From positions 62,001-126,000 of the forward strand of contig JBEWZL010000294.1 in NCBI GenBank assembly GCA_045837725.1: a DNA stretch of 64,000 bases. The letters are read 5' to 3'. Below, in pieces: positions 6,069 through 56,851 of this stretch. Made by a program: the position numbers and the translations under genes. The notes under the pieces were generated by a model. That model ran no database searches, was not told where the DNA came from, and saw only the letters and a list, made by a program, of their open reading frames with translations. Numbering within the stretch: position 1 is the first letter of the stretch; every line of letters starts with the position of its first letter. This stretch comes from Vermamoeba vermiformis. Taxonomy: Eukaryota.

Positions 6069-8097
6069 ATGCCAGAGCTTCCGGAAGGTAAGAGCAGCGT
6101 TTATCTTGCAAGATCGTGCTGGATCTGCGCAGTACAGCAAGTACTAACAACCTTATGTTAATTAGTGGAAAGAGCACGCGCTTACATTCACGACCATTGT
6201 GTGGGGAAAAAGGTCGTTAATGTAGAGGTGGTAAGTAGATCCGGAGAAAAACTAATTTTTAAAATTACACAGACCCCAATTAATTAACATAAATACTCTA
6301 CAACTAACCGTACACTATCGGTGTATTTATTTAAATTGGTATTAAATCATAATCAAGCAAAGAAATTCTAAGAAATAAATTTAGGCTCAAGACACCATAG
6401 TCTACGACGGTATCGCTCCAGATGCATTCGCTGCGCAATTAAAAGAAAGGACATTTAAGGACACTAAGCGGAGAGGCAAACACTTTTGGGTGGTGCTTGA
6501 TGAAGGACCACATCCGCTGTTTCATCTTGGCATGACCGGCAAATTTGTCGTAAGAACTACCTCTATCACTATCTAATACCTATATGATGTATATTAATAG
6601 TATAATAGGTTCGTAGTCCCGACGGCGTGTTCTTAAAAGCAGAAATGAAGCGTGCAATCTTCGAGGAAAAAGCGGCTCAGATTAAAGTGACCGAAATTAA
6701 AGTGACTAAGGAGACCGAGACGAATAATAACAATACGAATAATAATACGAATGTTAAAAAAGAGAATAGTGGCGATGAGAATAAGAATAGTGAAAGTGAT
6801 GAGAAGTTTGAAATGAGTGTCGATGAAGATTTTGAGAAGCCACGAGGCGACGAGAAAAAGAAGCCTAAGAATAACAAGGACAAAAAGAACAACACTAATA
6901 CTAAGAAAGATAAAGCAGAAAAAGAAGAGAATAAAAAGAAGAAGAAAAATTCGAAGAAAAAAAAGAAAAATGAAACTGACGCTGAAGACGAGTCCAATGA
7001 AGGTGAAGCAGTGATTATAACTGAGACTGAATGGCCTCCTCGATGGCACAAATTACTCGTTGAATTTGACGACGGTACTAAAATGGCGTTCTCGGATCCA
7101 AGAAGGTAATTTGGCTGTTCACTGAACCGTTCTTTCACTGAACTAAGAATACTTTGACTTCATTGACCGTTGATTTAGACTCGGAAGAATTCGAGTCAGA
7201 GCAGATCCAGCGACAGAAGAGCCAATCAAAAGCCTCGGCTACGATCCGATCCTTGATGAAATTGATGATGAAGCGTTCAACGCGATGGTTTTGAAAAGAA
7301 AAGCGCCTATTAAAGCTCTATTATTAGACCAAACTGTCTTTGCAGGTGTTGGCAACTGGATCGCGGACGAGGTATACCAATAACACATATTTCCTTTTAA
7401 GGAAAATACTTATCCGTTTCCTTTTTAGGTGCTGTACCAATCGTCAATTCACCCCGCAAGACCGTCGAACACTTTAACGACCGAAGAACTAGCGCGGCTG
7501 AAGACACATGTCAAAGATGTCATTCAGACAGCTGTCAATGTCGGTGCGGATTGGCGACAGTTCCCGAAGACGTGGCTGTTTCATTTCCGCTGGGACAAGG
7601 CCAAGAAGAATAAAAAGCACGTGACAGGGACTGGCGAGGCCATTGAATTTGTCACCGTTGGCGGAAGAACTTCCGCTGTCGTTGTTTCGAAGCAGATCCC
7701 GCCAGCCGATTACGATGTAAGAGTATTCATACTGTCATATACATTATACTAATACTATTAATATAGCCTAATAAGAAGAAGAAAGGCAAAAAGAGAAAAA
7801 AATCTGAAAGTGACAGCGACGACGAGGTGTCATCAGAGAGCAGCGAGCCACCGAAGAAAAAACAAAAGAGAACAAGTGCTGCGAGCAAAAAGGACAACAA
7901 AAAAGAGAAAAAAGAAACGAAGAATAAGGGTAAGACCAAAAAATCAATCGGGAAGAAGAAAAAGAGCAAAAAGTAAGTGGATGTGCCTGGATGAACATCA
8001 AATGGAGTACCTGATTCTAATAATGGCTTGTATTATTATTAATAGGGGCCTATCATTATCGTCGAGTTCTGATTCAGAAAGTGATTTTGAAGGCTAA
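6069..8097 (+). CDS. mutM: Formamidopyrimidine-DNA glycosylase (Fpg/MutM, plant/fungal zincless-finger type)
   Basis: N-terminal MPELPEVE across an intron, RRGKHFW, HLGMTG, FSDPRRLGRIR, H2TH motif IKALLLDQTVFAGVGNWIADEVLY, and TVGGRTSAVV, followed by a K/S/D-rich tail. Confidence 0.92.
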
Positions 8098-20970: not shown

Positions 20971-21558
20971 GAGCACAGAACTATGTGACTTACTTAACGA
21001 GATCTGTGTTGAGCGATTTTCCGTACCAATCACTTTGCCGATGTTTGTCAACAAGCGCACGTGGCAACTAACTCGATCGGCTACGACAAATTGTTATCCT
21101 GGCAAATATTTTATTATTAGACATATTTATTAATTTCATGGTATTGTATGCAGCATACAAACCAAATTGTCGTTAATATTTTTTTGGTTAAATTAACATT
21201 AATAGTACCAAAATTCAATAATATTATCCAACGATATTACAAATATATTATAATTAATAGTCGATTAAATTTGTGACGTAGGAATATCATAGGTCAGAGA
21301 TCTGTCATTTGAAGGCTAGATCCGTTAAACTTAACTTACAACGCATATTATAAGTCCACTTACCATATAATGATTCCTTTTGATTGAAAAAGAGTTTGAT
21401 ACGGTTGGGGTACTCGTGCTTCAAATTCGGTCGGTAAGAAAAAAGGGCGAAAGAACCAAAATTATCTCGTGTTTGCGTTAGATAACACGTGTCACGTGTA
21501 TATATTATAAAGCTCGTGTTAGCGAAGGTTTCATAATTACTGGAATTTATTGCTTGAC

Positions 21559-23883
21559 ATGGATCTACAGAAACCACTTTGGTTCGAAGCAATTTCGAAA
21601 GGAAATATTGAAGAGGTCAGAAAAATATTGGAGAAAAACATTGCAATCATTGACGTTTGCGATGTAAGTATAGAAACGTATCTAATAATTCATTCTCGCT
21701 TTGCCACGCTTACTAATATTATTTTATGCTATAGTGGGTAATTAATATCAATTTAAACGCTATATTTAATTAGTTAACTAATTTTTGGTGGCTTGCTTGT
21801 CCGATCCAATTTTTAGTGGGTAAGTTCACGAGAAATTCGCATTATAATCGACTTCTAACTTTATGAATTATTAGCAAGTACGTATAGGAATAGGCGGACG
21901 ATAAAACCATACTAATTAGATTACTTTCCATTTTTGTGACACGTGCAGGACGTAAGTTTGCTGGATCTTTCTCGAAACTTCGCAACCAATTAAAATTATT
22001 TATAGACAGGATTGCATTTAGCTGTATTTCGACAAAATAAGCATCTAGTTGAACTTCTACTTCGGCACGGTGCGGATGTAACTCTGAAAGTACGAGAGAA
22101 GAACCCTTAAAGATCTTACTAACATCGATTTTTTTATTTAGAACGTAAGTCATAGAAGAATAACGATGTAGGTTACTAATATTAATGGCTTTTTCCTTTT
22201 GTGTATCTTTACAGCGCGTAAGTTTTACACGTGTTGACCACCGACTTTACTAACCAATGACGCAGGATGTAAGTTTCAGATACACTTCGTGATCAGTCCT
22301 CACACATAAATAGGGAGTAAGTATATAATAATGCTATAATAAGTCGTGTATGCTAATTAGCTTTTCAGAATACTGCGTTAGAAGCTGCGAAGAAACGAGG
22401 GTACGATGACATCGTGGCGGCGTTTGAATTAAAGTAAGATGAATAGAAATAATATAAATCCGTACTAATATCTATTATGAAGCCCTGGTAAAGTCAAAGT
22501 TATCGTTCCTACCCTCGAAAAGCAAGTTGTGGATCTGGTGACAGCGAAGAATTGGCAGGACTTTGCAAGTCTTATTCTCGATCACCCGAGCTTGCCCGTG
22601 CACGGGATTATCAAAGACAAGTTCCCCTTGTCAATTAGAACACACGCACTGCAAATCGTTGTTTCGTCTTTGCGTCAATTCAACGACGGCGCGTCACATC
22701 AAGAGGGTATTTTGACCGAGAAATCTGCGCTATTACAGAAGACACTACGTGAGCTACACACAACAAAAGAAGAGTACTTGATGAAAATCAAGGCCATCGA
22801 GGATGAAATTACACAGGTGCAACAAAACTTTAAAGATACGCAGGCAAAGTGGTCGGATTTGAAGATTGAAAGCAAAGAAGTGGCCGCCAACTTGACTAAG
22901 ATTGAAGAAATATTCAAACAACAGCAATCAGCCGTACGAGAGCTTGAAGAGACCTTAAAGAAAAATTATACTCAGTGGAGCGTGGCGGATGTAGTTCGGA
23001 TCTTAGAAGAACTTGATTTGGGTGCTTATATCAACGCATTTGAAAGTAATAATATTACCGGCGCGTTCCTACCGCGCCTAAAGTCCAAGATGCTCGTAGA
23101 GAAGCTCGGCATGTCATTCAAAGAGGCCAAAAAACTTTCAAAAGCAATGTTCTTCCTTCAAAAGGGCGTTAGTATTCATAGCGAGCCTAGAGGAGTATTA
23201 ACATGGACTACTGAAGATGTTTGCCATTGGTTAAGCGAAACAAAATCCGCGCATCTGGTTGACAAATTCAAAGCAAAAGAAGTAGTTACAAATCTAAATA
23301 TTAGATGCGAGACCGTCGTGCTAATAATTTTTTAGGTAACTGGCGTAGAATTGGCGTTTTTGGATGATTACGACGTGAGCCACGTGTTGCAGATCGGTAA
23401 CTTGGGCGATGAAATTCATTTAATCGAAACGACTGAAGCATTAAGAGCTCAATTAAATGAAGAATATGTCGCTAAGCCTGAAGAAATTAAGGTAAGAGAC
23501 TTACATTGAGAGTTGAATCCGCGTCGGAATCAGATGCGCTTTCCATCAGCTTAGTTTTCTACAATACTAATATGACATGCTTCATATACTCATAGACTAC
23601 GCCTATCGAGCATAAGATCGATGAAGAGCTCGTACAGAAAGTCAAACGGCTCACGATCGAGCCTCCCGCCGACTTCTTGTGTCCTATCACTCAGGAAATT
23701 ATGCTCGACCCTGTAATAGCGAGCGATGGGCATACTTATGAACGAAGAGCTATTGAGAAGTGGTTCCAAGAACATAACTCCTCACCATTGACGAGCCAAC
23801 AGCTAGAAAATCGAAATCTGCTTCCCTCGCATACGTTGAAGCGAATAATACGTGAATTCATTGATAATAATCAACCTAAATAA
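21559..23883 (+). CDS. Ankyrin-repeat / coiled-coil / tandem SAM / U-box protein (putative E3 ubiquitin ligase) with eight 3-nt micro-exons
   Basis: Spliced: MDLQKPLWFEAISKGNIEEVRKILEKNIAIIDVCD-W-W-Q-D-TGLHLAVFRQNKHLVELLLRHGADVTLK-N-R-D-G-NTALEAAKKRGYDDIVAAFE. SAM motifs WSVADVVRIL..YINAFESNNITG and WTTEDVCHWL..KFKAKEVTG. U-box PPADFLCPITQEIMLDPVIASDGHTYERRAIEKW..SPLT. Confidence 0.9.
21735..21951 (+). other. Micro-exon run 1: four single-codon exons TGG (21735-37), TGG (21817-19), CAA (21875-77), GAC (21949-51)
   Basis: Contexts atag|TGG|gtaatt, ttag|TGG|gtaagt, ttag|CAA|gtacgt and gcag|GAC|gtaagt, with CTAAY branch points upstream. Confidence 0.82.
22142..22316 (+). other. Micro-exon run 2: four single-codon exons AAC (22142-44), CGC (22215-17), GAT (22266-68), GGA (22314-16)
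   Basis: Contexts ttag|AAC|gtaagt, acag|CGC|gtaagt, gcag|GAT|gtaagt and atag|GGA|gtaagt. TACTAAC/TACTAAT branch points precede the first three. Together they give the ankyrin loop K-NRDG-NTAL. Confidence 0.88.
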
Positions 23884-25683: not shown

Positions 25684-29326
<3,643 letters not shown>

Positions 29327-32115: not shown

Positions 32116-33829
32116 ATGCACCGCTTACTATTGCTTACCTGCTTTTTGGTTTGTTGTTGGATCGTTTCGGCTGATCTCACGTTAGAAGTTCTCGATCCGT
32201 CCTTTGCCTATCCTGCCGGAGCCAGATGGTAAGCGTAGTAGTATAATTGCTATACATTGCTTATCCAAATATAGTTTGGACGGTTCTCCTGCGTCGTTCC
32301 ACTTTGAGCAAGGTAAGCAAGACAACAAGATCTGAAATAAATCTGAATCACTCTCCAGGCAGCGAAACGAAGAAATGGGTGCTTTATATGCAAGGTGGTG
32401 GTAGCTGCGACAACGAACAAGACTGCCTTTCCCGTGCTAACGTAATTAATTAATGGCGTAAACTCGTTATAGCTTATTAATGTTCTCAGGATACTCTTGG
32501 ATCGTCGAATAACCAGCCCGGTTCGATACAAATGAAGAACTTAGCGTCCAACAATCCTGTTGTCAATCCTGTGAGTCAATTTATGCTACTTAATTCCCAC
32601 AGCAGTAACTTACCTAAATAACAGGGTTTTTGGAACTGGACGCACGTTCAATTCGACTACTGCAGTGGTGACAGATGGGCTGGCACTCGTGTCAATGCTT
32701 CCGCTGACTCATGGGGATTGTACTTTGCTGGGCACTTCAACTTCAAAGCAATTCTCGAACGTAAGTTTGTTGTTTTACAATGACGAGGTGGATCTGGCGT
32801 AAAAAACAAGAAGTTAATGATTATCAAACAGATTTGATTATTAAGTATCGTCTGGACCAAGCTACGGATATCTTATTTTACGGAACTAGTGCTGGTGCGA
32901 TTGGTGCGATGAACAATATCGATTACTTGAACATGGTACGCGTGACACGTGTCAAGTTGGGAATTCGTTTAATACCTTCTAACTGCACCTTCGTACAGAG
33001 ACTGCCAACGCCTAAGATCTCGTTATGTATGAACGGTGGCTGGGGCGTGGACTTCTATCCAGCATGGAGCGGACCTGGTGTTGGAGGCGAAGTTGACACC
33101 ATCACCACGCTCTACAAAGGCCACGTCAATGCAGACTGCGCTGCTGCCAATCCCACCAACCTCACCATGTGCATCTTCCCGCGCTATGTCTTCGCGTACA
33201 TTCCGAACAGAGTCTTCATTGTGAACTCGTTGATTGACTTGGTGCAAATGGCGACACTTGGATTCCAAGAGACAAACGTCACTTCGCCCGGTGGTGACAC
33301 GTACCTCGTCTCATTGGGCGAATACACCAAGCTGTCCATTCTCACCGAGTACACGCGAGATCCACGTGTCGATGGACTCTTCATCACGACCTGTCCCTAC
33401 CACGTCCAGACAAACAATGTCGTGCAAGGAGTGCTGCCCAATGTCGCTGCAGGCAAATGGTACTACAGACCCAAGAACGCGAGCACGCCTGCTGTCAACT
33501 ACGACAACTGTGCCATTGACTCGGTCGTGGCACTCTTGAAAGCGAATATCACGCTCTTCGATGACTGTCAAGCACTGATGAAATTCTGCGTTAAGAACAA
33601 CGGTAGTTCATCGGGGGCATTCGAAGCTGCGTTCAATGGCGCCATTGATACCGAATCCAGTCCAGATTCAAGTCCCGCAAGCGTAGAAAATGTGCCAACC
33701 TCTCCCGAGGGTGATAAAGCTGCTACCAGCACTGCTAATATTAATGTTAATATTAATATTAATAATTATTTGCTAGTGGTTGCTGTGCTTATTAATACAC
33801 TCGCAATTAGCTTTTTGCAAAATTACTAA
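32116..33829 (+). CDS. Pectin acetylesterase/Notum-family hydrolase, copy 1 (signal peptide, GPI-like tail)
   Basis: CLDGSP, KWVLYMQGGGSC, LGSS, NPGFWNWTHV..DYCSGD, YFAGH, GTSAGAIG (nucleophile Ser), NSLID and TTCPYH. Confidence 0.88.
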
Positions 33830-34291: not shown

Positions 34292-35895
34292 ATGAAGCTC
34301 TTACTGTCAATATCGTGCATTTTATTGTGCTGCTGGCTCGTTTCGGCAGATCTGACATTGGAAGTTTTGGACGAGACTTTCGCTAATCAAGCAGGAGCTA
34401 GATGGTAAGTGCCATTCATTTGATTCTATTGAGCTAAATTATATTATTCTAGCTTGGACGGCTCTCCTGGTTCATTTCACTTCGAGCAAGGTAAGTAAAC
34501 TGTTCGATCTGCCGAAATAATTCAACTTTTGTCCAGGCGCCGAAACTAAGAAATGGATTCTATATATGGAAGGTGGCGGTAGTTGTGCGACGGAACAAGA
34601 TTGCTCAGCGCGTGCACAGGTAGATTCAAAATCAGTTCGCTCGACCAAACGAAAATAGTAAATCCTGTAAGTCACAATATCAGCACACGTTCCGTGAGTG
34701 GATGTACTTACCGATCAGAAACAGGGTTTTTGGAACTGGACGCACGTTCGACTCGACTACTGCAGTGGTGACAGATGGGCTGGTACTCGTGTCAATGCTT
34801 CAGCTGACAGTTGGGGCTTTTACTTTGCTGGTCACGTCATCTTCAAAACAATTCTTGAACGTATGTTTGGACAGCTGGATCGAACCATAGCTATTATAGT
34901 TAACGCTTCTATCACTAGATTTGATCACTAAGTACCAACTCGACCAAGCTACTGAGATTTTGTTCCACGGAGGTAGCGCTGGTGCTCTTGGAGTGATGAG
35001 CAATGTTGACTATTTGAACAAAGTACGTGACACGTGTCATATCATAACTAACTCGAACCCAAAATCTAACGATGTCTTCGTGCAGAGACTGTCGGGCCCT
35101 AAGATCTCGCTTGGTATGAACTCTGGCTGGGGTGTTGACTTCACTCCAGCGTGGAGCGGACCAGGTGTTCAAGGTGTGATTGACACAGTGCTCAATCTCT
35201 ATCAAGGACACGTCAACGAAGACTGCGCTGCTGCCAATGCCAACAACGTGTCAATGTGCATCTTCCCGCGCTATGTCTTCGCGTACATTCCGAACCGCAT
35301 CTTCATTTTGAACTCGTTGATTGACGCGGTCCAACTGGCCATCCTTGGCTTCCAAAACTCTAATGTTTTCTCACCTGGTGGCAACACTTACGTCGTCTCG
35401 CTAGGCGAATACACCAAGCTCTCCGTTCTCGTACATTACACGCGAGATCCACACGCCAATGGACTGTTCATCACGACTTGTCCCTACCACGGCATTGACA
35501 TGGCCATCAACGGTGTGTTGCCCAACATTGCCTTTGCGGACTGGTACTACAGACCTACGACCTCGCCAACACCTGCTGTCACCTACGACAACTGTGTCGT
35601 TGACTCGGTCGTGGCACTCTTGAAGGCCAATGCCTCATTGTTGAACGACTGTCCGACTCTGATGCAGCTGTGCACCAAGGACAGTTCGCCCAATGCCTTC
35701 GAACAAGTGTTCAATAGCACGCCTTTGCCGAGCGAACCAAGTGCGCCAAGCGCATCCGTGCCTCTAACGGCCGACACACCGGTGGTCTCGAGCCCAAACA
35801 ACGTACCTAAAGGCAAATCATCGACTGGTACCTCTGCGGCTCGTTCTTTCAGTTTTGGAGCTGTGATTGTTGCGCTCTTGCCGATAATCTTGTAA
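34292..35895 (+). pseudogene. Pectin acetylesterase/Notum-family copy 2, with exon 4 largely deleted
   Basis: Same motifs as copies 1 and 3 (GGSAGALG, TTCPYH). The exon encoding LGSS...NDPVVNP is reduced to aatcct|gtaag at 34661-34671. Confidence 0.6.
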
Positions 35896-49361: not shown

Positions 49362-51368
49362 ATGGATCTCTTTGGTCTATTAATACACGTTAAGCATCCT
49401 AGCGTTGACGGAAAATACTTAAAGCTTCGTAGAGACAACGTTGTTGGAAGGTAACGGTCGACAAGATCACCGATGCGAATCCGTCTCTGACGCAATTTAT
49501 TTATTAAATAGTGGTAATGGCTCGAACATTCGTATAACTAGCTTAAAATTGGACGCTACTCACTTCAGAATTGCATTTGATTCTAAAAATCAGGTAAGCA
49601 AAAATGACCGAAAAAATAATTCTATATTGCTTTATCTTACAAATAAGGACTATTATGCACCCTTTAAATAATACCATAAACAATTAAATAATATTTTATT
49701 TCTAGAGCTTTATCAAAACACTTTGTGGCGAAGGTTTCGAACCACCTTTATTGAACGGAAAGTAAGTCATTATTCGTTGCTATATATTTAATTCAGCTTT
49801 AAATATCAACCTATATTAACTATTAATATTTAAGGCCGGTACCTGCAGACAAGTTGACGCCGATCAGCCACTTAGACATTATCAAAGTCAACAACGTTTC
49901 ATTCCGTTTCGAAGAAGGTAATTAATCGCGAATATACTTGCCATCTACTATATAAGATGCTAATTATAATGCTTTAGCGGCGATGTTGGACGCAGCAGAT
50001 CCGCGTCGAGTAATGAGCCCTGCGAGCAACAAGACATCACAGACGATTGAACTGTCGCCGTTGAAAGAGCAGCCTGACGCACGTGGCAAGAAACGATCGA
50101 TCGACAATGTGGCGCAAGAAGACACCAACACACGTGTCACAGAGTCACCTGTCAAGAAATTGAAGGCCAGCCACGACAAGACCCCGTCATCGCCTGTCAA
50201 TAACAACAACAATAACAACAACAGAGACGAGGACAAAGAGGAACAAAAGAGCCACGACGAGAGCGAAGATAAGATGGAAGAGGACGAGAAGGTCAAAGAG
50301 TCCGTAGAAGAAGAGGAACACAAATCTGAACACGAAGACAAAGAGGAGAAAGAAGAAAAGAGCGAAGACACAATTAAATCTGCGCCGCAAGACCAAGATG
50401 AAGATGAAGCTAAGAGCGAAGAAGAACAAAAAGAAGAGAAGAAAAAGAACGTCATTAAGACACCTGTCAAAACTTACAGCAGGAAGAGCACGAGTAATTT
50501 GAGCAGTGCTAGCAACAAATCCGCAAAGAGCACGAACAAAAACACGCAGAAATCTGTTGAAGAAAGCGAAGACGAACAGTCGGAAGAGAATGTCGAACAG
50601 AAAAACGAACGCAAAGGCAAGAAACAAGAGTCGCCAGCACAGAGCGAAGAGGAAGAAAAGAGCGCCGAAGAGGAGTCTGAAAAGGAAAACAAGAACAAAA
50701 AACACGGCAAAAAGAACAACAAGAATAAGAAGAACAAAGACGAGAGTGAAAAGTCCGAGGAGGAGTCTGTTGAGGACAAGAAAAAGGCTAATAATAAGAA
50801 CAATAAGCGCAATAAGAATAAGAAGACTAAAGATGAGAGCGAAGAAGAACAGTCCGAGCAGTCAGAATCAGCCGAAGACACGAAGAAAACGAACAAAAAT
50901 ACCAAGAAGAATAACAAACAGAAGAAACAAGAGTCTTCAGCGAGCAGTCAAGAAGAAGAACAGTCCTCGGCTGAAGAAAAAGAAGAGTCAGAGCAAGAAG
51001 AAGAACAGCCCAAGAACAACAAAAAGAACATGAAGAAAACTAACGGCAAGACGAACAAAAAAACTAAAGCCAAAGCCATGAACAAAAAACAAGCGGCCAA
51101 GAAAGTCGTCGAAGAGTCGAGTGGCGAGGACGAAGAGAATGACGCGAGCGAGGAACAGAGCGAGAGTGACAAGGAGAATGAGAAGCCGTCCAAGAACAAC
51201 AAGAAAAACAACACGAACAATAAGAAGGCAGGTACCAAGGTCTCGCCCGAGAAATCAAAAGACAAGAAGTTAGAGTTCGCGTGGGAGTCAAGAACATTTG
51301 CGAAGTATTGGAAACCCACTGTCTCGCGACGAACACGACAAAAACGTGCCTCGACCAAGTACAATTAG
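49362..51368 (+). CDS. Degenerate N-terminal FHA domain followed by a long E/K/N/S-rich disordered region
   Basis: Four short exons splice to MDLFGLLIHVKHPSVDGKYLKLRRDNVVGSGNGSNIRI..LDATHFRI...PPLLNGKPV...ISHLDIIKVNNVSFRFE, then join the 49983-51368 ORF in frame. Confidence 0.75.
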
Positions 51369-51560: not shown

Positions 51561-54500
51561 TTAATCCCATTCACTGGCCGTGGCTTGAGGCTGTTCATAA
51601 GGTCTGTCCCATGAACTCGACGCCCAGCTCGAGCCTCCAGTATCACGTGACCGATAGTCATCACGACCGTTGTCCCTTCGACCGCCTCGATAATCTCCGC
51701 CACTGTGAAATCAAGTTAACAATCTGTTTGACACGTGTCAAAGTGAGTGTTCGACTTACCGATTGTAGTTGTCACGACGAGGGCCGCGAGGGTCAGTACG
51801 GCGTCGATCAGCAGGTGTAGCACGCGTGTCCCAATCGTTGCTGCCATAGCCACCGTCCCACTCGTTGTGCGGGGCCACAGGAGGAGCACCGGAACTCGTG
51901 GTAGGTCGCTTCTTCTGCGGGATTGGATCGTTGAAGTGACGCTTGAACCAGCCGACCAATTGATCGGGGTCTTTGAAAATCTTCTCGCGGAACTTGAAGC
52001 CCTCGGGGGTCAGGCCGATCGGCTCCTTTCGCAGCGAGTTGTTGGGAATGTAATAAATGACAAAACTGCCAGGGTTCTTGTAGTTCAGTCCAATCAGATA
52101 GGGAATGCGTTGAGGGTTGTTTTGCTTCTCTTCACGCAAGGCCTGTTCGATGGTGGTCTGATCGCCCTCCTTGTACTTGTTGTAGCTCACCATGTCGTTG
52201 GCATTCATCGCCATCGGATCGACAAAAGTGATGAACAACTCGTTCAAGTCTTCAAATGATCGACCCTCAATGGTGAGTTTCTTGCCTAACGTGTACGCGT
52301 TCTCCTTGCCCTCTTCCCTCACTTCGATGTTAGCGTAAAGACCGCCGTAGAACTTCCAAGTGATGGTCAAGTAGTTCGGGCCGCGACTTGACGGACGAAT
52401 CAAGTACTCGCCAGGCTCTTTGTCGGCCAAGTACTTAACGGCCTCTTCGTGAGTGATGTTCTTGAAGAACGGGTGTGCCACTGCACGGTGGTAAAATCGC
52501 GGCTTGCGGGCTTGAGCGCGCTTCTCTCGTGCAATTGCCTCGTCTTCAGCTGTTTGCATGTCAGAAGCACGTGTTGTGAGCACGACAAAGAATCGCTCTT
52601 TGTTGATCTCCTTGATCTTGGCTTGAATGGTCGAGCCTTGCATCTCTTCTTTGATGCGCGGCCAGTCATTGTTCCAGTCAAGGCCGCGGCGGTTGTCCGT
52701 GAACAACGAAACAGGAATCAAACCTGTCAGACCGTTGTCAAGAGCCACACGCACACCTTTCTCGCCAACATCGAGCACACGCACACTGACAATCTGACCC
52801 ACGGCCAAACTGTCACCAGACTCTCCAGTCAACAAGTCAAACACCTCTTCGAAAGTAGGATCGGCGTAAGGTTGTCTGCAGTCTAAGAAGGGAGCGTGGA
52901 ACTCTTCCTTCATGCGCTTGAGGGTCTCCAACTTCTTGGCTTGGAACTCTTCTTCCAAGTATTGCGCGCACATCACCAAGTCAATGTCGTCAAGCTTGGC
53001 AGGATCATCGACCAACTTGCGCACGTAATCAATGTTGTCGTCACCTTCACGCTCAGCGTCAATGGCGTCACGAGCAATCTTTTGAGCCAACTCGTAGTCG
53101 TCAGGATGAATGCGCATGTTGTCCAAAAAGTCTCCATCCTCGTTCTCTTCAGTGGTGTGGAAAATTCTCAAAAATGCCACGCAGTTGGTGTAAACACAAG
53201 AGTTCTGGCCAAGGACTTTTTGCAAGTCTTTACGGGATCTAATACGACCGCGCAAACCTTGCAACAAAGCTTGAGCTTTACGAGGACCTAGACCGCAGAC
53301 GAATTGCAGCAGAGGTTCAGTCCACTTGTGGTCCAAGACTCGGTTGATTTCAACACCAACAGAGTTGACAACAGCCAAGAACGGTCGCTCCAGACGTGCC
53401 AAGAGTTGATCTCTCGGGACCAATTCCTTCAAGGCGTGCAATGGCAGCGACGCAATTTCATTGTCTTGATTGCAGAGACCTGCAATTTCAGGCAACGGGT
53501 CCAACAGTCGTCGTGCAATTGACACAGCACGCAAGAGTCCAGAAGGATAGCCAGGGAACTCGTCTTTAGCTCGCTTCGAGTTAGCGTAGATGCGTGCAAT
53601 ATTGCTGTCAATGAATGTGATTGGCTTGGGCTTGAAGCTGTCATCCTCATCGCGCAACGATTGCATGCAACGTTCAATAAGTGTGTACAGGGTGCGAGTG
53701 CTGTAGCCGTCAGTACCCAACACCACAGCTGTCGGGTTGTGTTGACGAATAAATCTAGGTCAAGGTTAGTTAACTGTGATTAAACGGCTTCAATTAATAG
53801 AACTTACTCGGAAAGTCTCGTGGCTTCAGCATCACCAGCACGAGTGCTCGAAAGAATGTTGAACGACTCTTGAGCCTGCAGTTCACCTTCAGAGTCAATA
53901 AAAGCGGCGTAAGTAGGCTCTTCAAATCTGCCCCAAGAGAAGCCAATAATTGTGACTTCGGCATCCGTATCAACAGGTGCTGGCGCGTCCCATTCATCAG
54001 CGGGCTTGGGAGTAGGTGGTTGATAAGGTCCTTTCAATAACAACTTCTCCAAGTTCTGAGCGCACACCTTAGCGACATATTGAGTTGCTTCACGCTTCAG
54101 TTTTTCTTCGAGCTGAGCAGTCAAAAACTTGAAAATCTCGTCTTTGAGGTCATTCACAATCTTTCGACGAATTTCGTTCCACTTGCGTGCAACAGTGCTT
54201 GTGCTGTCGCTGAAGAAGAACTTCTCGATGTCGTAAGTCATGTCTGCCACCACTTGCTCGGGTAACTTGATCTCGTATGTAATTAATCCTTCGCGCTTGG
54301 CTTTGGTAATCTGCAAATAGAGTTCTGACGCGGAAAGTTCAACGATCATCTTGTCATGAATACCCTTCACAGCCTAAAATAGAAATTAGATCCGTGCATC
54401 CAATGCATATATCAGGTTAGAACTTACTCTAAGAGGGTGGAACTCATCGTTCAACTCTCGTCTGCCGTTAGCCGTCAACTCCGTGGAGATGACTGACTCC

Positions 54501-56851
54501 AGCCAAAATTTACCTCGGAAGAATCGTCGAACACGAGGATCAATGGTCAGTTCTTTGACGTACATAAACTGAGCAGCTGTATAATGGATTAGCACGTGAT
54601 GTTGTCAACTTAATTACAAAAGGTACTTACCCTTCAAGACTGACTCAGTAGTCGAAAAATCAGCAGAAATGTAACGCTCAGCAACTTCATCAGGATCGCT
54701 AGGATCGTCTTGCACAGGTGTCTTCACCACACTTTCGACACTGCTGCCGAACTCCTTCGGTGTGATTCCAAAGTGCTGCAATTAAGAACTTAGTAATAGA
54801 ACAATGGAAAGAATAGTGTGCGTTTGTAGGTGTTAAGTGCAATTTGAATCAGTAAATAAGTCGTCAACAACGTGTTTAATCTGATCGGACAATAGAACGC
54901 ATCATTTTAATTGCGAAAATATAAAAGTAAAAGAACTCAGAATCAGTACGTACCTTCAAGAAATTTCGAATGCCTGCTTTTTTGCACAACGTGTATGCGT
55001 CACGCTTAACAGGTCGTTTGTACTTAGAACCACCCTTTTGAACAATTTCGTCGTAATGGTGAAACACGAAGCAATCGTGGAAGTCGTTCAAATCTTCTTC
55101 GTTCTGTGTAAATTCAATCTCAACAACATTTTCACGATCAGCTGCGCGAATGTCATCATCGACAGGGTCCTACAAAATATCTCCATTAGCACTCATTGTA
55201 CTTTATTATTCGATCGCTAAACTTACGTGTTCGTGTGCTTGATAGACTTGCGTCAAGCTCTCCTTTCTGCTCTGCAAATAGAACCATTTCTCATCCAAGT
55301 CAAATATCTCCCACAAGTGCGAGGCCTCAAGTTCAGGTACCCAGTAGTCTCGACGATAATTCAAAATGAACGGAATTTCCATTCTGTTGACGAGCAAGTT
55401 TCGCAATACGTTTGCGATCTTGGGCACGACCTTTTCAGACTCGAGTCCTTCAGGGAGTGTCAAAAACTTGTGAATCCACGTGGCTTCATTGACGAGGTCA
55501 CGCTCTTCGGGGATTGGTCGGTTAGGGAACCTCAATTGCAATCGTTCAGGCACGTCAGTTGTTTTGATTGCCTCGTCTTTGCGCGTGATGTATCGCTCTT
55601 CTAATACTGCCGGCTCGAATTCTTTTCTGTACGCAGCGTATTGATCTTCTTCATCACCCACTGGTTCTTCCTCCTAAATTCATTCGTTAGCAATGCAATT
55701 GACATTATTAAGGTGATTTGCATTAGCATCGCCAATGAGACTATCAATGTGCAATTGTGCGATAGTAATTCATGAAAATAATCGCAAAAAAATTGTTGAA
55801 AATGACATACCTCGACGGGGGCCAAGAACATATTCTCATCGATGTCCTCACCGAAGACTTCACGCGCTGCTTGCATTTGCATCGCAGTCACGCCAGTCAT
55901 ATCACCGGCCGTACGTCTCTTCTTTCTTCGACGGCGAACCGGTTGGCCATCTGCATCTACGTCTCCAACGATAAAGTCATCGAGCTCGTCCTCATCTGAA
56001 TAGAACTCATCCTCTTCTTCCTCAATCATATCCCTGATTCTGTCCTCGCGAGTGATGTCAATGGAGTCGCTGGGATCAAAGTCTGACTGGCGGCGCATCT
56101 GAGGTCGTTCTTGAGCAGGGCGAGGTTCCCTCACTGGTCGTGGAGCAGAAAATGGTTTCTCCTCTAAACAGTATGTTAATATCCGTCGTAATTACAATGA
56201 TATTGTAGCTTTGAGGCAGATTTGCCCACAAACTTTTTCGATATTTGTAAAAATACGACATAATTCAGAAATTAACTGAAAAATCAATTATTCGTTATAA
56301 TAGCAATTTGTGAATAATAAACTAGTTAATTAATATTTTTACCTTCTAAGCTGCCTTCGTCAAACCGAATTTCATCGTCAAAAAGTATAGGCTCTGCCAC
56401 GGCTTCTGCATCATTATCTCCACGTACTAATCTCCTAAATTTTCTAGGTTGTGCTTTGGCTCTATTCACGCGCATGCCAGTATTTTCCTCGATGAGATCC
56501 AAATCGGAGTCGTCTAACGTGCGAATCTCCTTGTGCTTTCGCTTATGACCTCTCTTTTTCTTCTTGGGCATTGCTTCGCCCTCATCAGCCTCAGGGACTA
56601 CGAAGTCATCATATTTATACGCGTCAATGTCCTCGCCACCTTCGCCGCTGTCTGATCCTGAAGCATCATTGTTATCTCCCTCATCCTGTGATTTCTCTTC
56701 TACATCATCAATTTCATCACGACCATCACCTTCTACAATAATACGGCCATTAGACAATTTTTAAATAATTATTAAAATATTTTTCTAAGTCAGTAAATTG
56801 CAGATTTCACTAGTTATCACGCTGGGAACGAGTAGTACCATTATCGGACAT
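51561..56851 (-). CDS. SPT6: Transcription elongation factor SPT6
   Basis: Acidic N-terminus (LDDSDLDLIEENTG), FEP..LEERY..D.IK.TDVPERLQ, YqgF/HhH region (AVSIARRLLDPL, LQFVCGLGPRKA, LDNMRIHPDDY), S1 domain and tandem SH2 (IRPSSRG..LTITWK, NPQRIPY). Confidence 0.96.

What the first reader, a model, noticed from the sequence alone, without database searches (positions are those of the whole stretch)
21559..22433. Ankyrin binding loops spelled out one codon per exon: two runs of four consecutive 3-nt micro-exons
Seen: what looks like two long introns holds eight AG|NNN|GT units: TGG 21735, TGG 21817, CAA 21875, GAC 21949, then AAC 22142, CGC 22215, GAT 22266, GGA 22314. They are separated by 45-79 nt introns with strong donors (six of eight gtaagt) and mostly clear CTAAY/TACTAAC branch points. 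Including all of them gives D-WWQD-TGLH and K-NRDG-NTAL, which fit the ankyrin D/N-x-x-G-x-T spacing. The second repeat comes to exactly 33 aa (28-codon exon + 4 micro-exons + 1). Established: the D-x-x-G-x hairpin carries variable target-contacting residues of ankyrin repeats, among those randomised in DARPins. Inference: every exon is phase 0 and one codon long, so any skipping pattern stays in frame (up to 2^8 patterns), and single residues could be swapped between paralogues by intronic recombination. This would be a residue-resolution diversification system for a recognition surface. I do not know of a described system with chains of single-codon exons mapped onto ankyrin loops. I saw no such runs in other genes of the window.
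Basis: partly seen in the sequence, partly recalled or inferred. Interest (0 to 1): 0.95.

Follow-up and report, generated by a model that had tools for sequence, protein, structure and literature searches.

The report
Eight single-codon exons in ankyrin loops
A gene of an unidentified microbial eukaryote really does spell out two ankyrin-repeat loops one codon per exon, but the eight codons are conserved between species, so this is an extreme, old gene structure and not a way of varying the protein.

Summary
All eight AG|NNN|GT units lie at the stated coordinates, separated by 45-79 nt introns. Splicing them in gives a 506-codon frame that aligns without gaps to a 506-aa homologue, P0001, which carries WWQD and NRDG at the same places. 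A contig identical to the window in run X1 is spliced exactly at CGC^GAT and GGA^AAT. RNA reads of a relative contain TGG TGG CAA GAA and AAC CGT GAT GGC. Two metagenome contigs of a species about 60% identical in protein have the same ten introns and eight 3-nt exons, with only synonymous codon changes.

The diversification idea is not supported: the residues are conserved in all four sources, no skipped forms were seen, and no paralogue family was found.

My reading is that these are constitutive single-codon exons, with each short intron recognised on its own and neighbouring introns removed one after another. They look like an old local multiplication of introns in an Ank-coiled-coil-SAM-SAM-U-box gene.

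Single 3-nt exons, and pairs of adjacent micro-exons, are in print. My searches found no runs of four. I class it as a new variant of a known kind, of moderate to high interest.

The parts
21559..23883 (+). Whole gene: 14 exons and 13 introns, 506 codons plus TAA. Encodes three ankyrin repeats, a coiled coil, two SAM domains and a U-box.
   Evidence: tblastn of P0001; spliced model aligns to P0001 without gaps, 371 of 506 identical; Pfam on P0001 and on the long exon
21559..21663 (+). Exon 1, 35 codons from ATG to ..DVCD; the donor GTAAGT follows
21735..21737 (+). Micro-exon TGG (W36)
   Evidence: AG|TGG|GTAATT. Same codon and position in L001/L002. W36 in P0001. TGG TGG in the relative's RNA.
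21817..21819 (+). Micro-exon TGG (W37)
   Evidence: AG|TGG|GTAAGT; conserved in L001/L002, P0001 and the relative's RNA
21875..21877 (+). Micro-exon CAA (Q38)
   Evidence: AG|CAA|GTACGT. The same codon, and the donor GTACGTATA, are present in L001.
21949..21951 (+). Micro-exon GAC (D39)
   Evidence: AG|GAC|GTAAGT. GAT in L001 (synonymous); GAA (E) in the relative's RNA.
22006..22089 (+). Exon 6, 28 codons: the helices of the middle ankyrin repeat (TGLH ... GADVTLK)
22142..22144 (+). Micro-exon AAC (N68)
   Evidence: AG|AAC|GTAAGT; AAC in L001 and in the relative's RNA
22215..22217 (+). Micro-exon CGC (R69)
   Evidence: The X1 contig joins 22217 directly to 22266 with GT..AG ends. CGT in L001 and in the relative's RNA (synonymous).
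22266..22268 (+). Micro-exon GAT (D70)
   Evidence: Acceptor side of the X1 joint 22217>22266; GAT in L001 and in the relative's RNA
22314..22316 (+). Micro-exon GGA (G71)
   Evidence: The X1 contig joins 22316 directly to 22369 with GT..AG ends. GGA in L001; GGC in the relative's RNA (synonymous).
22369..22433 (+). Exon 11, 65 nt (NTALEAAKKRGYDD..), ending in phase 2
   Evidence: X1 joint 22433>22483
21777..21809 (+). Block conserved between species inside intron 2, running from the branch point to near the 3' splice site upstream of the second TGG. Its role is unknown.
   Evidence: Intron 2 is 78% identical to its L001 orthologue (z 6.5). The other ten introns are 56-73% identical (z 0.8-3.3). 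There is no significant fold, no Rfam match and no other copy in the window.
22483..23281 (+). Exon 12, 799 nt: coiled coil and first SAM domain
   Evidence: Pfam SAM_1/SAM_2; tblastn. Borders read.
23336..23491 (+). Exon 13: rest of the second SAM domain and a linker
23596..23883 (+). Exon 14: U-box and the TAA stop
   Evidence: 86% identical to P0001 residues 412-506; U-box PF04564 in P0001, E 2.5e-20; stop read

Best explanation
The eight 3-nt units are constitutive single-codon exons. The gene encodes a protein with three ankyrin repeats, a coiled coil, two SAM domains and a U-box, so it is probably an E3 ubiquitin ligase. The micro-exons encode the two inter-repeat hairpin loops, WWQD and NRDG.

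Shown: the units are in frame, conserved, and present in transcripts. Two of the ten introns are seen spliced exactly at micro-exon borders in the window's own organism.

Inferred, mechanism: each 45-79 nt intron carries its own donor, CTAAY-like branch point and acceptor, and is recognised as a unit (intron definition). A 3' splice site and the next 5' splice site lie only 3 nt apart. Neighbouring introns therefore cannot be engaged at once and must be removed one after another. After each removal the codon becomes the end of a longer exon.

Inferred, origin: an old, local multiplication of phase-0 introns in an ankyrin loop, probably before the repeat unit itself was duplicated. Four of the five intron positions are shared between the two arrays. 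It has been kept since at least the split of two species about 60% identical in protein. It is not a device for varying the protein.
For: Coordinates, splice signals and intron lengths are as described.

The clustering is far beyond chance. In L001, 6 of 7 AGNNNGTRNGT matches lie in the arrays, against 0.81 expected.

With the micro-exons the product is 506 aa and aligns to P0001 without gaps, 371 of 506 identical. Without them it is 498 aa with 10 gap columns. tblastn leaves exactly P0001 residues 36-39 and 68-72 uncovered, both in the window and in L001.

An X1 contig with 0 mismatches covers 22180-22217 | 22266-22316 | 22369-22433 | 22483-22537. Its three joints all have GT..AG ends. Introns 8, 10 and 11 are removed, intron 9 is retained, and the 3' end of intron 7 is retained. 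This alternating pattern fits removal of non-neighbouring introns first, but it is a single contig.

In three RNA runs of a relative, the read ends that run past the exon borders give TGG TGG CAA GAA followed by ACA, and AAC CGT GAT GGC followed by AAT.

L001 and L002 have the same ten introns and eight codons, with synonymous differences only.

The Pfam Ank register places the codons in the hairpin.

Introns are otherwise sparse. The rest of this gene has 3, and the SPT6 gene in the window has about 3 in more than 4 kb. The chance that 10 of 13 introns fall in two 13-nt stretches is about 6e-16.

Retention of any array intron is disruptive. Nine of the ten hold an in-frame stop, and the tenth shifts the frame.
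Against: In the window's own organism only 2 of the 10 array introns were seen spliced. The only X1 contig over array 1 (21542-21802) is unspliced, and no fully spliced transcript was recovered.

X1 is labelled RNA only as a guess.

P0001 comes from an 1800-nt contig that I could not read. It may be a transcript or an intronless gene, so it shows the residues but not the splicing.

The relative's reads are 85-95% alike and shallow (27-37 reads per run). One consensus had agreement of only 0.59, so minor isoforms could be hidden.

The origin by duplication is weakly supported. The best paralogous intron pair is L3-L9 (z 6.5). The mean z on the register-matched diagonal is 1.45, against -0.17 to 0.73 on the other diagonals. 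The window's own introns 3 and 9 are not alike.

No genome is held, so I cannot say whether such arrays are common in this organism.
Confidence: 0.82

Rival explanations
1. The phase-0 single-codon exons are skipped in many combinations, or exchanged between paralogues by recombination in the introns, so that the ankyrin binding loops vary residue by residue.
For: All ten array introns are phase 0 and every micro-exon is 3 nt, so any skipping pattern stays in frame. Read depth was too low to exclude rare isoforms.
Against: WWQD/WWQE and NRDG are conserved in all four sources, with synonymous codon changes, which indicates purifying selection. The read consensus in all three RNA runs holds all four codons of each array. 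No direct joints 21663>22006 or 22089>22369 were listed. No paralogues were found. In one search the next-best hit of 120 listed has 41% identity over 45% of the query. In one search only P0241 and P0242, of 150 listed, match outside the ankyrin part. There is no second such locus in the window. Dropping a residue from a 33-residue ankyrin repeat would be expected to damage the fold (inference).
Confidence: 0.05
2. The arrays are kept because they act as a splicing gate. Ten tightly packed introns that must be removed in turn slow or limit mRNA maturation (detained introns), which makes expression depend on spliceosome capacity or on a factor binding the conserved block in intron 2. This does not exclude the best explanation.
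For: The only same-organism contigs are unspliced or half spliced. All ten introns are kept in both species, and one intron has a conserved branch-point-to-acceptor block. Retention of any array intron stops or shifts the frame. In plants, the introns flanking micro-exons are reported to be removed consecutively, with the upstream intron detained (PMC8831610, passages read).
Against: The three ordinary introns of the gene are conserved as well, so conservation may only reflect slow intron turnover. The evidence is two low-depth contigs from one run. The block has no significant fold and no Rfam match. No expression data across conditions are available.
Confidence: 0.2
3. The two arrays arose independently, by repeated intron gain at a hotspot in each loop. 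They are not copies made when one ankyrin repeat already carrying an array was duplicated.
For: The arrays are offset by one codon relative to the repeat register: after positions 32, 33, 1, 2, 3 versus 31, 32, 33, 1, 2. Intron lengths do not match between arrays. In the window, paralogous introns are not significantly alike.
Against: Four of the five positions coincide. The best paralogous match, L3-L9, and the highest diagonal mean are the register-matched ones. No known mechanism of intron gain targets successive codon boundaries (recalled, not tested).
Confidence: 0.25
4. The units are chance AG..GT pairs inside two long introns of 342 and 279 nt, and the protein of this organism lacks the eight residues.
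For: Ordinary introns of 135-175 nt exist in the window, so long introns are possible. Array 1 was not seen spliced in the same organism.
Against: X1 joints lie exactly at two micro-exon borders. The eight codons and their splice signals are conserved in L001/L002 while the intron sequence has diverged. The eight residues are present in P0001 and in the relative's RNA. The alignment is gapless only with them. The clustering statistics argue the same way.
Confidence: 0.02

Closest known systems
Constitutive ultra-short micro-exons. Examples: the conserved 3-base exon of human MAP4K5 (PMC8632122, search listing only); the 3-bp exons of RPS24 (PMC12207440, PMC11162997, abstracts) and of Drosophila homothorax (PMC7392893, abstract); the 1-nt exons of Arabidopsis APC11 and VPS55 (PMC8831610, passages read); the 1-nt exon of Fusarium CYP621A (PMC12940212, abstract).
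   Same: Canonical GT-AG introns on both sides. The exon is needed to keep a conserved motif and the frame, is conserved between species, and is missed by gene finders.
   Different: Those are single exons, or a 3-nt exon beside longer ones. Here four 3-nt exons follow each other directly, twice in one gene, separated by introns of only 45-79 nt.
Adjacent plant micro-exons. A 5-nt and a 12-nt exon lie in the Peptidase M1 gene, where a 108-bp coding region spans five exons. The source interprets this as gradual intronization (PMC11096116, passages read; PMC8831610).
   Same: A local crowding of introns in a short conserved coding stretch. Inclusion is constitutive and the structure is old and conserved. 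The flanking introns are reported to be removed consecutively.
   Different: Two micro-exons rather than four. Their sizes are not all 3 nt, and they are not at repeated positions of a repeat protein. Plant introns are longer.
Micro-exon genes (MEGs) of Schistosoma (PMC10526429 abstract: exons of 3-81 bp, introns up to 5 kb; PMC10399815 abstract: high variability and alternatively spliced isoforms). Also the aphid bicycle genes (10.1101/2021.09.24.461719, listing only).
   Same: Runs of short symmetric exons whose skipping keeps the frame.
   Different: By recollection, most of a MEG coding sequence is micro-exons, and MEGs encode secreted, fast-evolving, multi-copy proteins with observed isoform variation. 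Here only 24 of 1518 coding nt are micro-exons, the residues are conserved, no isoforms or paralogues were seen, and the introns are very short.
Recursive splicing at ratchet points, and fungal stwintrons (PMC6224609, PMC5639578, PMC9024468; abstracts only).
   Same: A long non-coding interval is removed in several successive splicing reactions. A 5' splice site is used only after the upstream reaction has taken place.
   Different: Recursive sites leave nothing in the mRNA, and stwintrons interrupt a splice signal. Here each step leaves one codon in the mRNA and every intron has complete signals of its own.

Membership tests
Ankyrin repeat (Pfam PF00023 / PF12796) | Sequence match above Pfam's gathering score | tested here: met
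   P0001 scores Ank_2 42.2 bits (cut-off 27.3), Ank 36.2 (21.1) and Ank_4 39.0 (22.7). The window's spliced product is 371 of 506 identical to P0001 without gaps. The window's spliced protein itself was not sent to Pfam because it is a joined sequence.
Ankyrin repeat (Pfam PF00023 / PF12796) | 33-residue period with the hairpin D/N-x-x-G-x-T ahead of helix 1 | tested here: met
   T40 and T73 are 33 residues apart. NRDG-N-T fits the motif, and WWQD-T has the same spacing. The AF2 single-sequence model puts residues 36-39 and 68-71 between helix pairs, but it is of low confidence (mean pLDDT 44).
Constitutive micro-exon (3 nt or less) flanked by spliceosomal introns | Canonical GT..AG introns on both sides, each with its own branch point | tested here: met
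   All ten introns begin GTA and end AG. Most have CTAAY 15-35 nt upstream of the AG; introns 5 and 9 have weaker candidates.
Constitutive micro-exon (3 nt or less) flanked by spliceosomal introns | The exon is present in transcripts | tested here: met
   X1 joints at 22217>22266 and 22316>22369. All eight codons are in the read consensus of a relative. For six micro-exons the evidence is indirect, coming from relatives only.
Constitutive micro-exon (3 nt or less) flanked by spliceosomal introns | Conserved between species | tested here: met
   Same positions and same amino acids in L001/L002.
Schistosoma-type micro-exon gene (MEG) variation system | Alternative inclusion of micro-exons giving protein variants | tested here: not met
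   No skipped joints were listed, and the read consensus holds all the codons. Depth was low, so rare forms are not excluded.
Schistosoma-type micro-exon gene (MEG) variation system | Fast-evolving multi-copy family | tested here: not met
   Loop residues are identical or conservative in four sources. No paralogues appear among the 120 and 150 listed hits. The organism's genome could not be scanned.
Schistosoma-type micro-exon gene (MEG) variation system | Most of the coding sequence made of micro-exons; secreted product | tested here: not met
   Only 24 of 1518 coding nt are micro-exons. The Ank, SAM and U-box domains point to a cytosolic protein. A signal peptide was not tested.
Introner / introner-like element introns | Many near-identical intron copies in the genome | tested here: inconclusive
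   The array introns have no copies elsewhere in the 64-kb window and show no strong similarity to each other. The whole genome was not available.
Recursive splice sites / stwintrons | A zero-length exon (AG|GT juxtaposed), or an intron nested in a splice signal | tested here: not met
   Three nucleotides remain in the mRNA at every step, and each intron has complete signals.
U-box E3 ligase | U-box domain above the Pfam threshold | tested here: met
   PF04564 scores 72.8 bits (cut-off 21.4) in P0001 residues 435-504. The window's exon 14 is 86% identical over P0001 residues 412-506. Ligase activity was not tested.

The most novel reading that the evidence does not exclude
Runs of single-codon exons are a distinct, heritable gene architecture made by a codon-stepped local multiplication of introns, for example re-insertion or tandem copying of an intron 3 nt from its parent. 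They are then kept because obligatory one-after-another removal of ten packed introns gates mRNA maturation, with the conserved branch-point-to-acceptor block of intron 2 as a control element. If so, this lineage would offer a natural system to study how introns are born next to each other and how a spliceosome handles exons far below any known size limit in series.
Probability: 0.2. Interest if true: 0.8.

Novelty: new variant of a known kind. Interest (0 to 1): 0.62.

Why it matters
The locus shows that a spliceosome can assemble a reading frame from four successive 3-nt exons, twice in one gene, and that this arrangement can persist over long evolutionary time. Ten of the gene's 13 introns sit within 24 coding nucleotides, in a genome where introns are otherwise sparse.

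This pattern is hard to reconcile with random intron gain. It makes local intron multiplication, and the order of removal of abutting introns, directly testable.

It is also a warning for annotation. Standard gene finders and spliced aligners would call two long introns and deliver an ankyrin domain lacking eight conserved residues. Here tblastn skipped exactly these residues.

It does not provide a new mechanism of protein diversification.

Tried and rejected
1. Whole-genome scan for more arrays: no genome is held for this window.

2. RNA holders: no listed holder of the stretch is on record as RNA. X1 is RNA only by guess. X16-18 turned out to be a relative, 85-95% alike.

3. More orthologues. 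The metagenome scan gave only L001 and L002. Genome contigs and viral contigs gave none. The word-based search with the ankyrin part gave only generic ankyrin proteins after P0001. In the exhaustive search only P0241 and P0242, of the 150 listed, match outside the ankyrin part, and both are fragments of the middle of the protein.

4. Taxon. The atlas search gave no lineage. The best named SPT6 relative is Balamuthia at 37%, with animals and plants at 32-36%. Rfam found nothing in the window. The organism stays unidentified.

5. Other micro-exon runs in the window. A crude intron finder and the pattern scans gave no second run. The candidate at 26399 is an ordinary exon end.

6. Introner-type origin: no intron copies elsewhere in the window.

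7. Hairpin in the conserved block of intron 2: not significant (z -0.3 in the window, -1.5 in L001). No Rfam match.

8. Structure. The AF2 model of P0001 without an alignment was poor (mean pLDDT 44) and was used only for loop and helix positions. No fold search was made.

9. Earlier notes of this scan held nothing on this genome or on look-alikes.

10. Literature: searches found no description of runs of 3-nt exons. Supplementary files were not consulted and could hold such cases.
Full report
**1. What is in the sequence**

An ATG lies at 21559 on the + strand. It opens a 35-codon exon that ends at 21663 before GTAAGT.

Between 21664 and 22005 there are four AG|NNN|GT units: TGG 21735-37, TGG 21817-19, CAA 21875-77 and GAC 21949-51. 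A 28-codon exon follows at 22006-22089.

Four more units lie beyond it: AAC 22142-44, CGC 22215-17, GAT 22266-68 and GGA 22314-16. Then comes a 65-nt exon at 22369-22433.

The ten introns measure 71, 79, 55, 71, 54, 52, 70, 48, 45 and 52 nt. All begin with GTA and end with AG. Most have a CTAAY-type branch point; introns 5 and 9 have weaker candidates.

**2. More than chance**

| Pattern | Source | Matches | Expected | In the arrays |
|---|---|---|---|---|
| AGNNNGTAAGT | window | 13 | 1.78 (largest 6 of 100 shuffles) | 6 of 13 (21815-22322) |
| AGNNNGTRNGT | window | 25 | 11.2 | 7 of 25 |
| AGNNNGTRNGT | L001 | 7 | 0.81 | 6 of 7 |

A Poisson estimate for 7 matches in 508 nt is about 2e-9. It is about 5e-8 after allowing for 25 anchor positions.

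No second run exists in the window. The candidate at 26399 is an ordinary exon end.

**3. The gene**

Guided by P0001 and by reading the borders, the gene has 14 exons over 21559-23883. It has three ordinary introns: 22434-22482, 23282-23335 and 23492-23595.

The spliced frame is 1518 nt plus TAA. Its 506 residues align to the 506-aa P0001 without a single gap, 371 of 506 identical. Without the micro-exons the product is 498 aa and the alignment needs 10 gap columns.

tblastn left exactly P0001 residues 36-39 and 68-72 uncovered, both in the window and in L001.

Pfam finds ankyrin repeats, two SAM domains and a U-box in P0001, and SAM in the window's long exon. The product is therefore probably a U-box E3 ligase with a small ankyrin head. 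Ligase activity is inferred.

**4. Transcript evidence (the only lay allowed)**

Run X1 is RNA only by guess. It gave two contigs with no mismatch to the window.

- One covers 22180-22217 | 22266-22316 | 22369-22433 | 22483-22537. Its three joints all have GT..AG ends. Splicing therefore takes place exactly at CGC^GAT and GGA^AAT in the window's own organism. The 45-nt intron between GAT and GGA, and the end of the intron before CGC, are still present in this contig.
- The other contig, 21542-21802, is unspliced.

Three RNA-seq runs, X16-18, carry the same species label but are only 85-95% alike. They gave 27, 37 and 31 laid reads. The parts of these reads that run past the exon borders read:

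- ..GAC TGG TGG CAA GAA ACA.. (X18, agreement 0.92)
- ..AAG AAC CGT GAT GGC, directly before AAT (agreement 0.87 in X16, 0.90 in X18 and 0.59 in X17)

All eight codons are therefore in the relative's mRNA. No direct joints 21663>22006 or 22089>22369 were listed.

Limits: only 2 of the 10 array introns were seen spliced in the same organism. Depth was low, and minor isoforms could be missed.

**5. Conservation**

P0001 was the one hit of the first protein search. It is 68% identical over the long exon and comes from an 1800-nt contig, so it is a transcript or an intron-less gene. It has WWQD and NRDG at the two sites.

The single metagenome scan gave L001 and L002. These are nearly identical to each other and 60% identical to the window in the long exon.

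Both carry the same architecture: TGG, TGG, CAA, GAT and AAC, CGT, GAT, GGA. Each is flanked by AG and GT, with introns of 59, 77, 62, 76, 41, 48, 73, 47, 48 and 53 nt.

| Source | Loop 1 | Loop 2 |
|---|---|---|
| Window | WWQD | NRDG |
| P0001 | WWQD | NRDG |
| L001 / L002 | WWQD | NRDG |
| Relative's RNA (X16-18) | WWQE | NRDG |

Codon differences are synonymous (GAC/GAT, CGC/CGT, GGA/GGC), apart from D to E.

The intron sequences have diverged to background: 56-73% identity, z 0.8-3.3 against shuffles. The exception is intron 2, at 78% and z 6.5.

**6. Where the codons sit in the repeat**

The Pfam Ank model aligns P0001 residues 39-68 to model positions 3-32. It follows that:

- Array 1 encodes repeat positions 33, 1, 2, 3, with introns after positions 32, 33, 1, 2, 3.
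- Array 2 encodes positions 32, 33, 1, 2, with introns after positions 31, 32, 33, 1, 2.

Four of the five intron positions are shared, and the arrays are offset by one codon. In the coding sequence they lie 96 nt apart rather than 99.

A single-sequence AF2 model of P0001 was poor (mean pLDDT 44). It does put residues 36-39 and 68-71 between helix pairs.

That these hairpin positions include those randomised in designed ankyrin proteins is recalled, not tested.

**7. The diversification idea**

It is formally true that every skipping pattern stays in frame, because all ten introns are phase 0. The evidence points the other way:

- The residues are conserved across four sources.
- The codon changes are synonymous.
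- The read consensus includes all the codons.
- No paralogue was found. Of the 120 hits listed, the best after P0001 itself is a generic ankyrin protein at 41% identity over 45% of the query. Of the 150 listed, only P0241 and P0242 match outside the ankyrin part.

**8. How it most likely works (inference)**

Each short intron has complete signals and is recognised on its own. A 3' splice site and the next 5' splice site are 3 nt apart, so two neighbouring introns cannot be engaged at the same time.

They must therefore be removed in turn. The codon joins a growing exon after each step.

The half-spliced X1 contig has introns 8, 10 and 11 removed and introns 7 and 9 retained. This fits removal of non-neighbours first, but it is one contig.

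For plant micro-exons, consecutive removal of the two flanking introns has been reported (PMC8831610, passages read).

Retention of any array intron is disruptive. Nine of the ten carry an in-frame stop, and intron 1 (71 nt) shifts the frame.

**9. Origin (inference, weaker)**

Introns are sparse elsewhere. This gene has three outside the arrays. SPT6 in the window has about three, of 135-175 nt where read, in more than 4 kb.

Ten of 13 introns falling in two 13-nt stretches has a chance of about 6e-16.

The shared register suggests that an array existed before the ankyrin unit was duplicated. Support from sequence is weak:

- The best paralogous pair is L3-L9, a register-matched pair, with z 6.5 and a 22-nt block.
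- The register-matched diagonal has the highest mean z, 1.45 against -0.17 to 0.73.
- The window's own introns 3 and 9 are not alike.

The array introns have no copies elsewhere in the window, so nothing points to an introner-type element. The genome could not be scanned.

**10. The organism**

It is not identified. The best named SPT6 relative is Balamuthia at 37% identity, with animals and plants at 32-36% and an unnamed protein at 48%. The atlas and Rfam searches gave nothing useful.

It looks like a deep-branching microbial eukaryote.

**11. Comparison with what is known**

- Single 3-nt exons are in print: MAP4K5, RPS24 and Drosophila homothorax (listing and abstracts).
- So are 1-nt exons (passages; abstract).
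- So is a pair of adjacent plant micro-exons, 5 and 12 nt, within five exons spanning 108 bp.
- Micro-exon gene families that vary by exon skipping are known (abstracts).
- A 2026 preprint reports conserved branch-point-to-acceptor regions upstream of neural micro-exons (10.64898/2026.01.16.699960, abstract). This parallels the intron 2 block.

None of my seven literature searches found runs of consecutive 3-nt exons. Supplements were not consulted.

**12. Verdict**

The architecture is real, old and extreme. The diversification reading is not supported.

I class it as a new variant of a known kind, with interest 0.62.

Noticed in passing
window 21777-21809 (intron 2); L001 about 1636-1670: Intron 2 is the only intron of the gene clearly conserved between the two species. 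A block of about 33 nt runs from the branch point to near the acceptor upstream of the second TGG micro-exon. It contains TGGTGGC, the same letters as the spliced start of the first array. The distance from branch point to acceptor is about 35 nt, longer than in the neighbouring introns.
   Followed up: partly
L001 introns 3 and 9 (about 1715-1739 and 2147-2171): The 3' ends of these two introns share a 22-nt block with two small gaps (z 6.5). They occupy the same position of the ankyrin register in the two arrays. The window's own introns 3 and 9 do not share it. The motif CCAATTAA also occurs in window intron 5 and may be a variant branch-point context.
   Followed up: partly
window 22180-22537 (X1 contig): The partly spliced transcript has alternate introns removed: introns 8, 10 and 11 are out, introns 7 and 9 are still in. 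The only contig over array 1 is unspliced. This hints that these introns are removed slowly.
   Followed up: no
window 32765-33829 and 34900-35895, + strand: Two neighbouring open frames both match Pfam pectinacetylesterase (PF03283, E 4e-11 and 2e-12). This is probably a tandem gene pair.
   Followed up: no
window 51987-56026, - strand: SPT6 gene with very long exons and only about three ordinary introns. The best named relative is Balamuthia at 37% identity, so the organism is far from any named genome in the search.
   Followed up: partly
window 49956-51368 and 6609-7109, + strand: Long open frames rich in K, E, N and S, with runs of asparagine and no Pfam match for 49956-51368 (6609-7109 was not scanned). 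They account for the strong AT skew at 50-52 kb and 6-8 kb.
   Followed up: no
P0001: The source names this Ank-SAM-U-box protein 'gas vesicle protein'. That does not fit any of its Pfam domains and looks like a misannotation.
   Followed up: no
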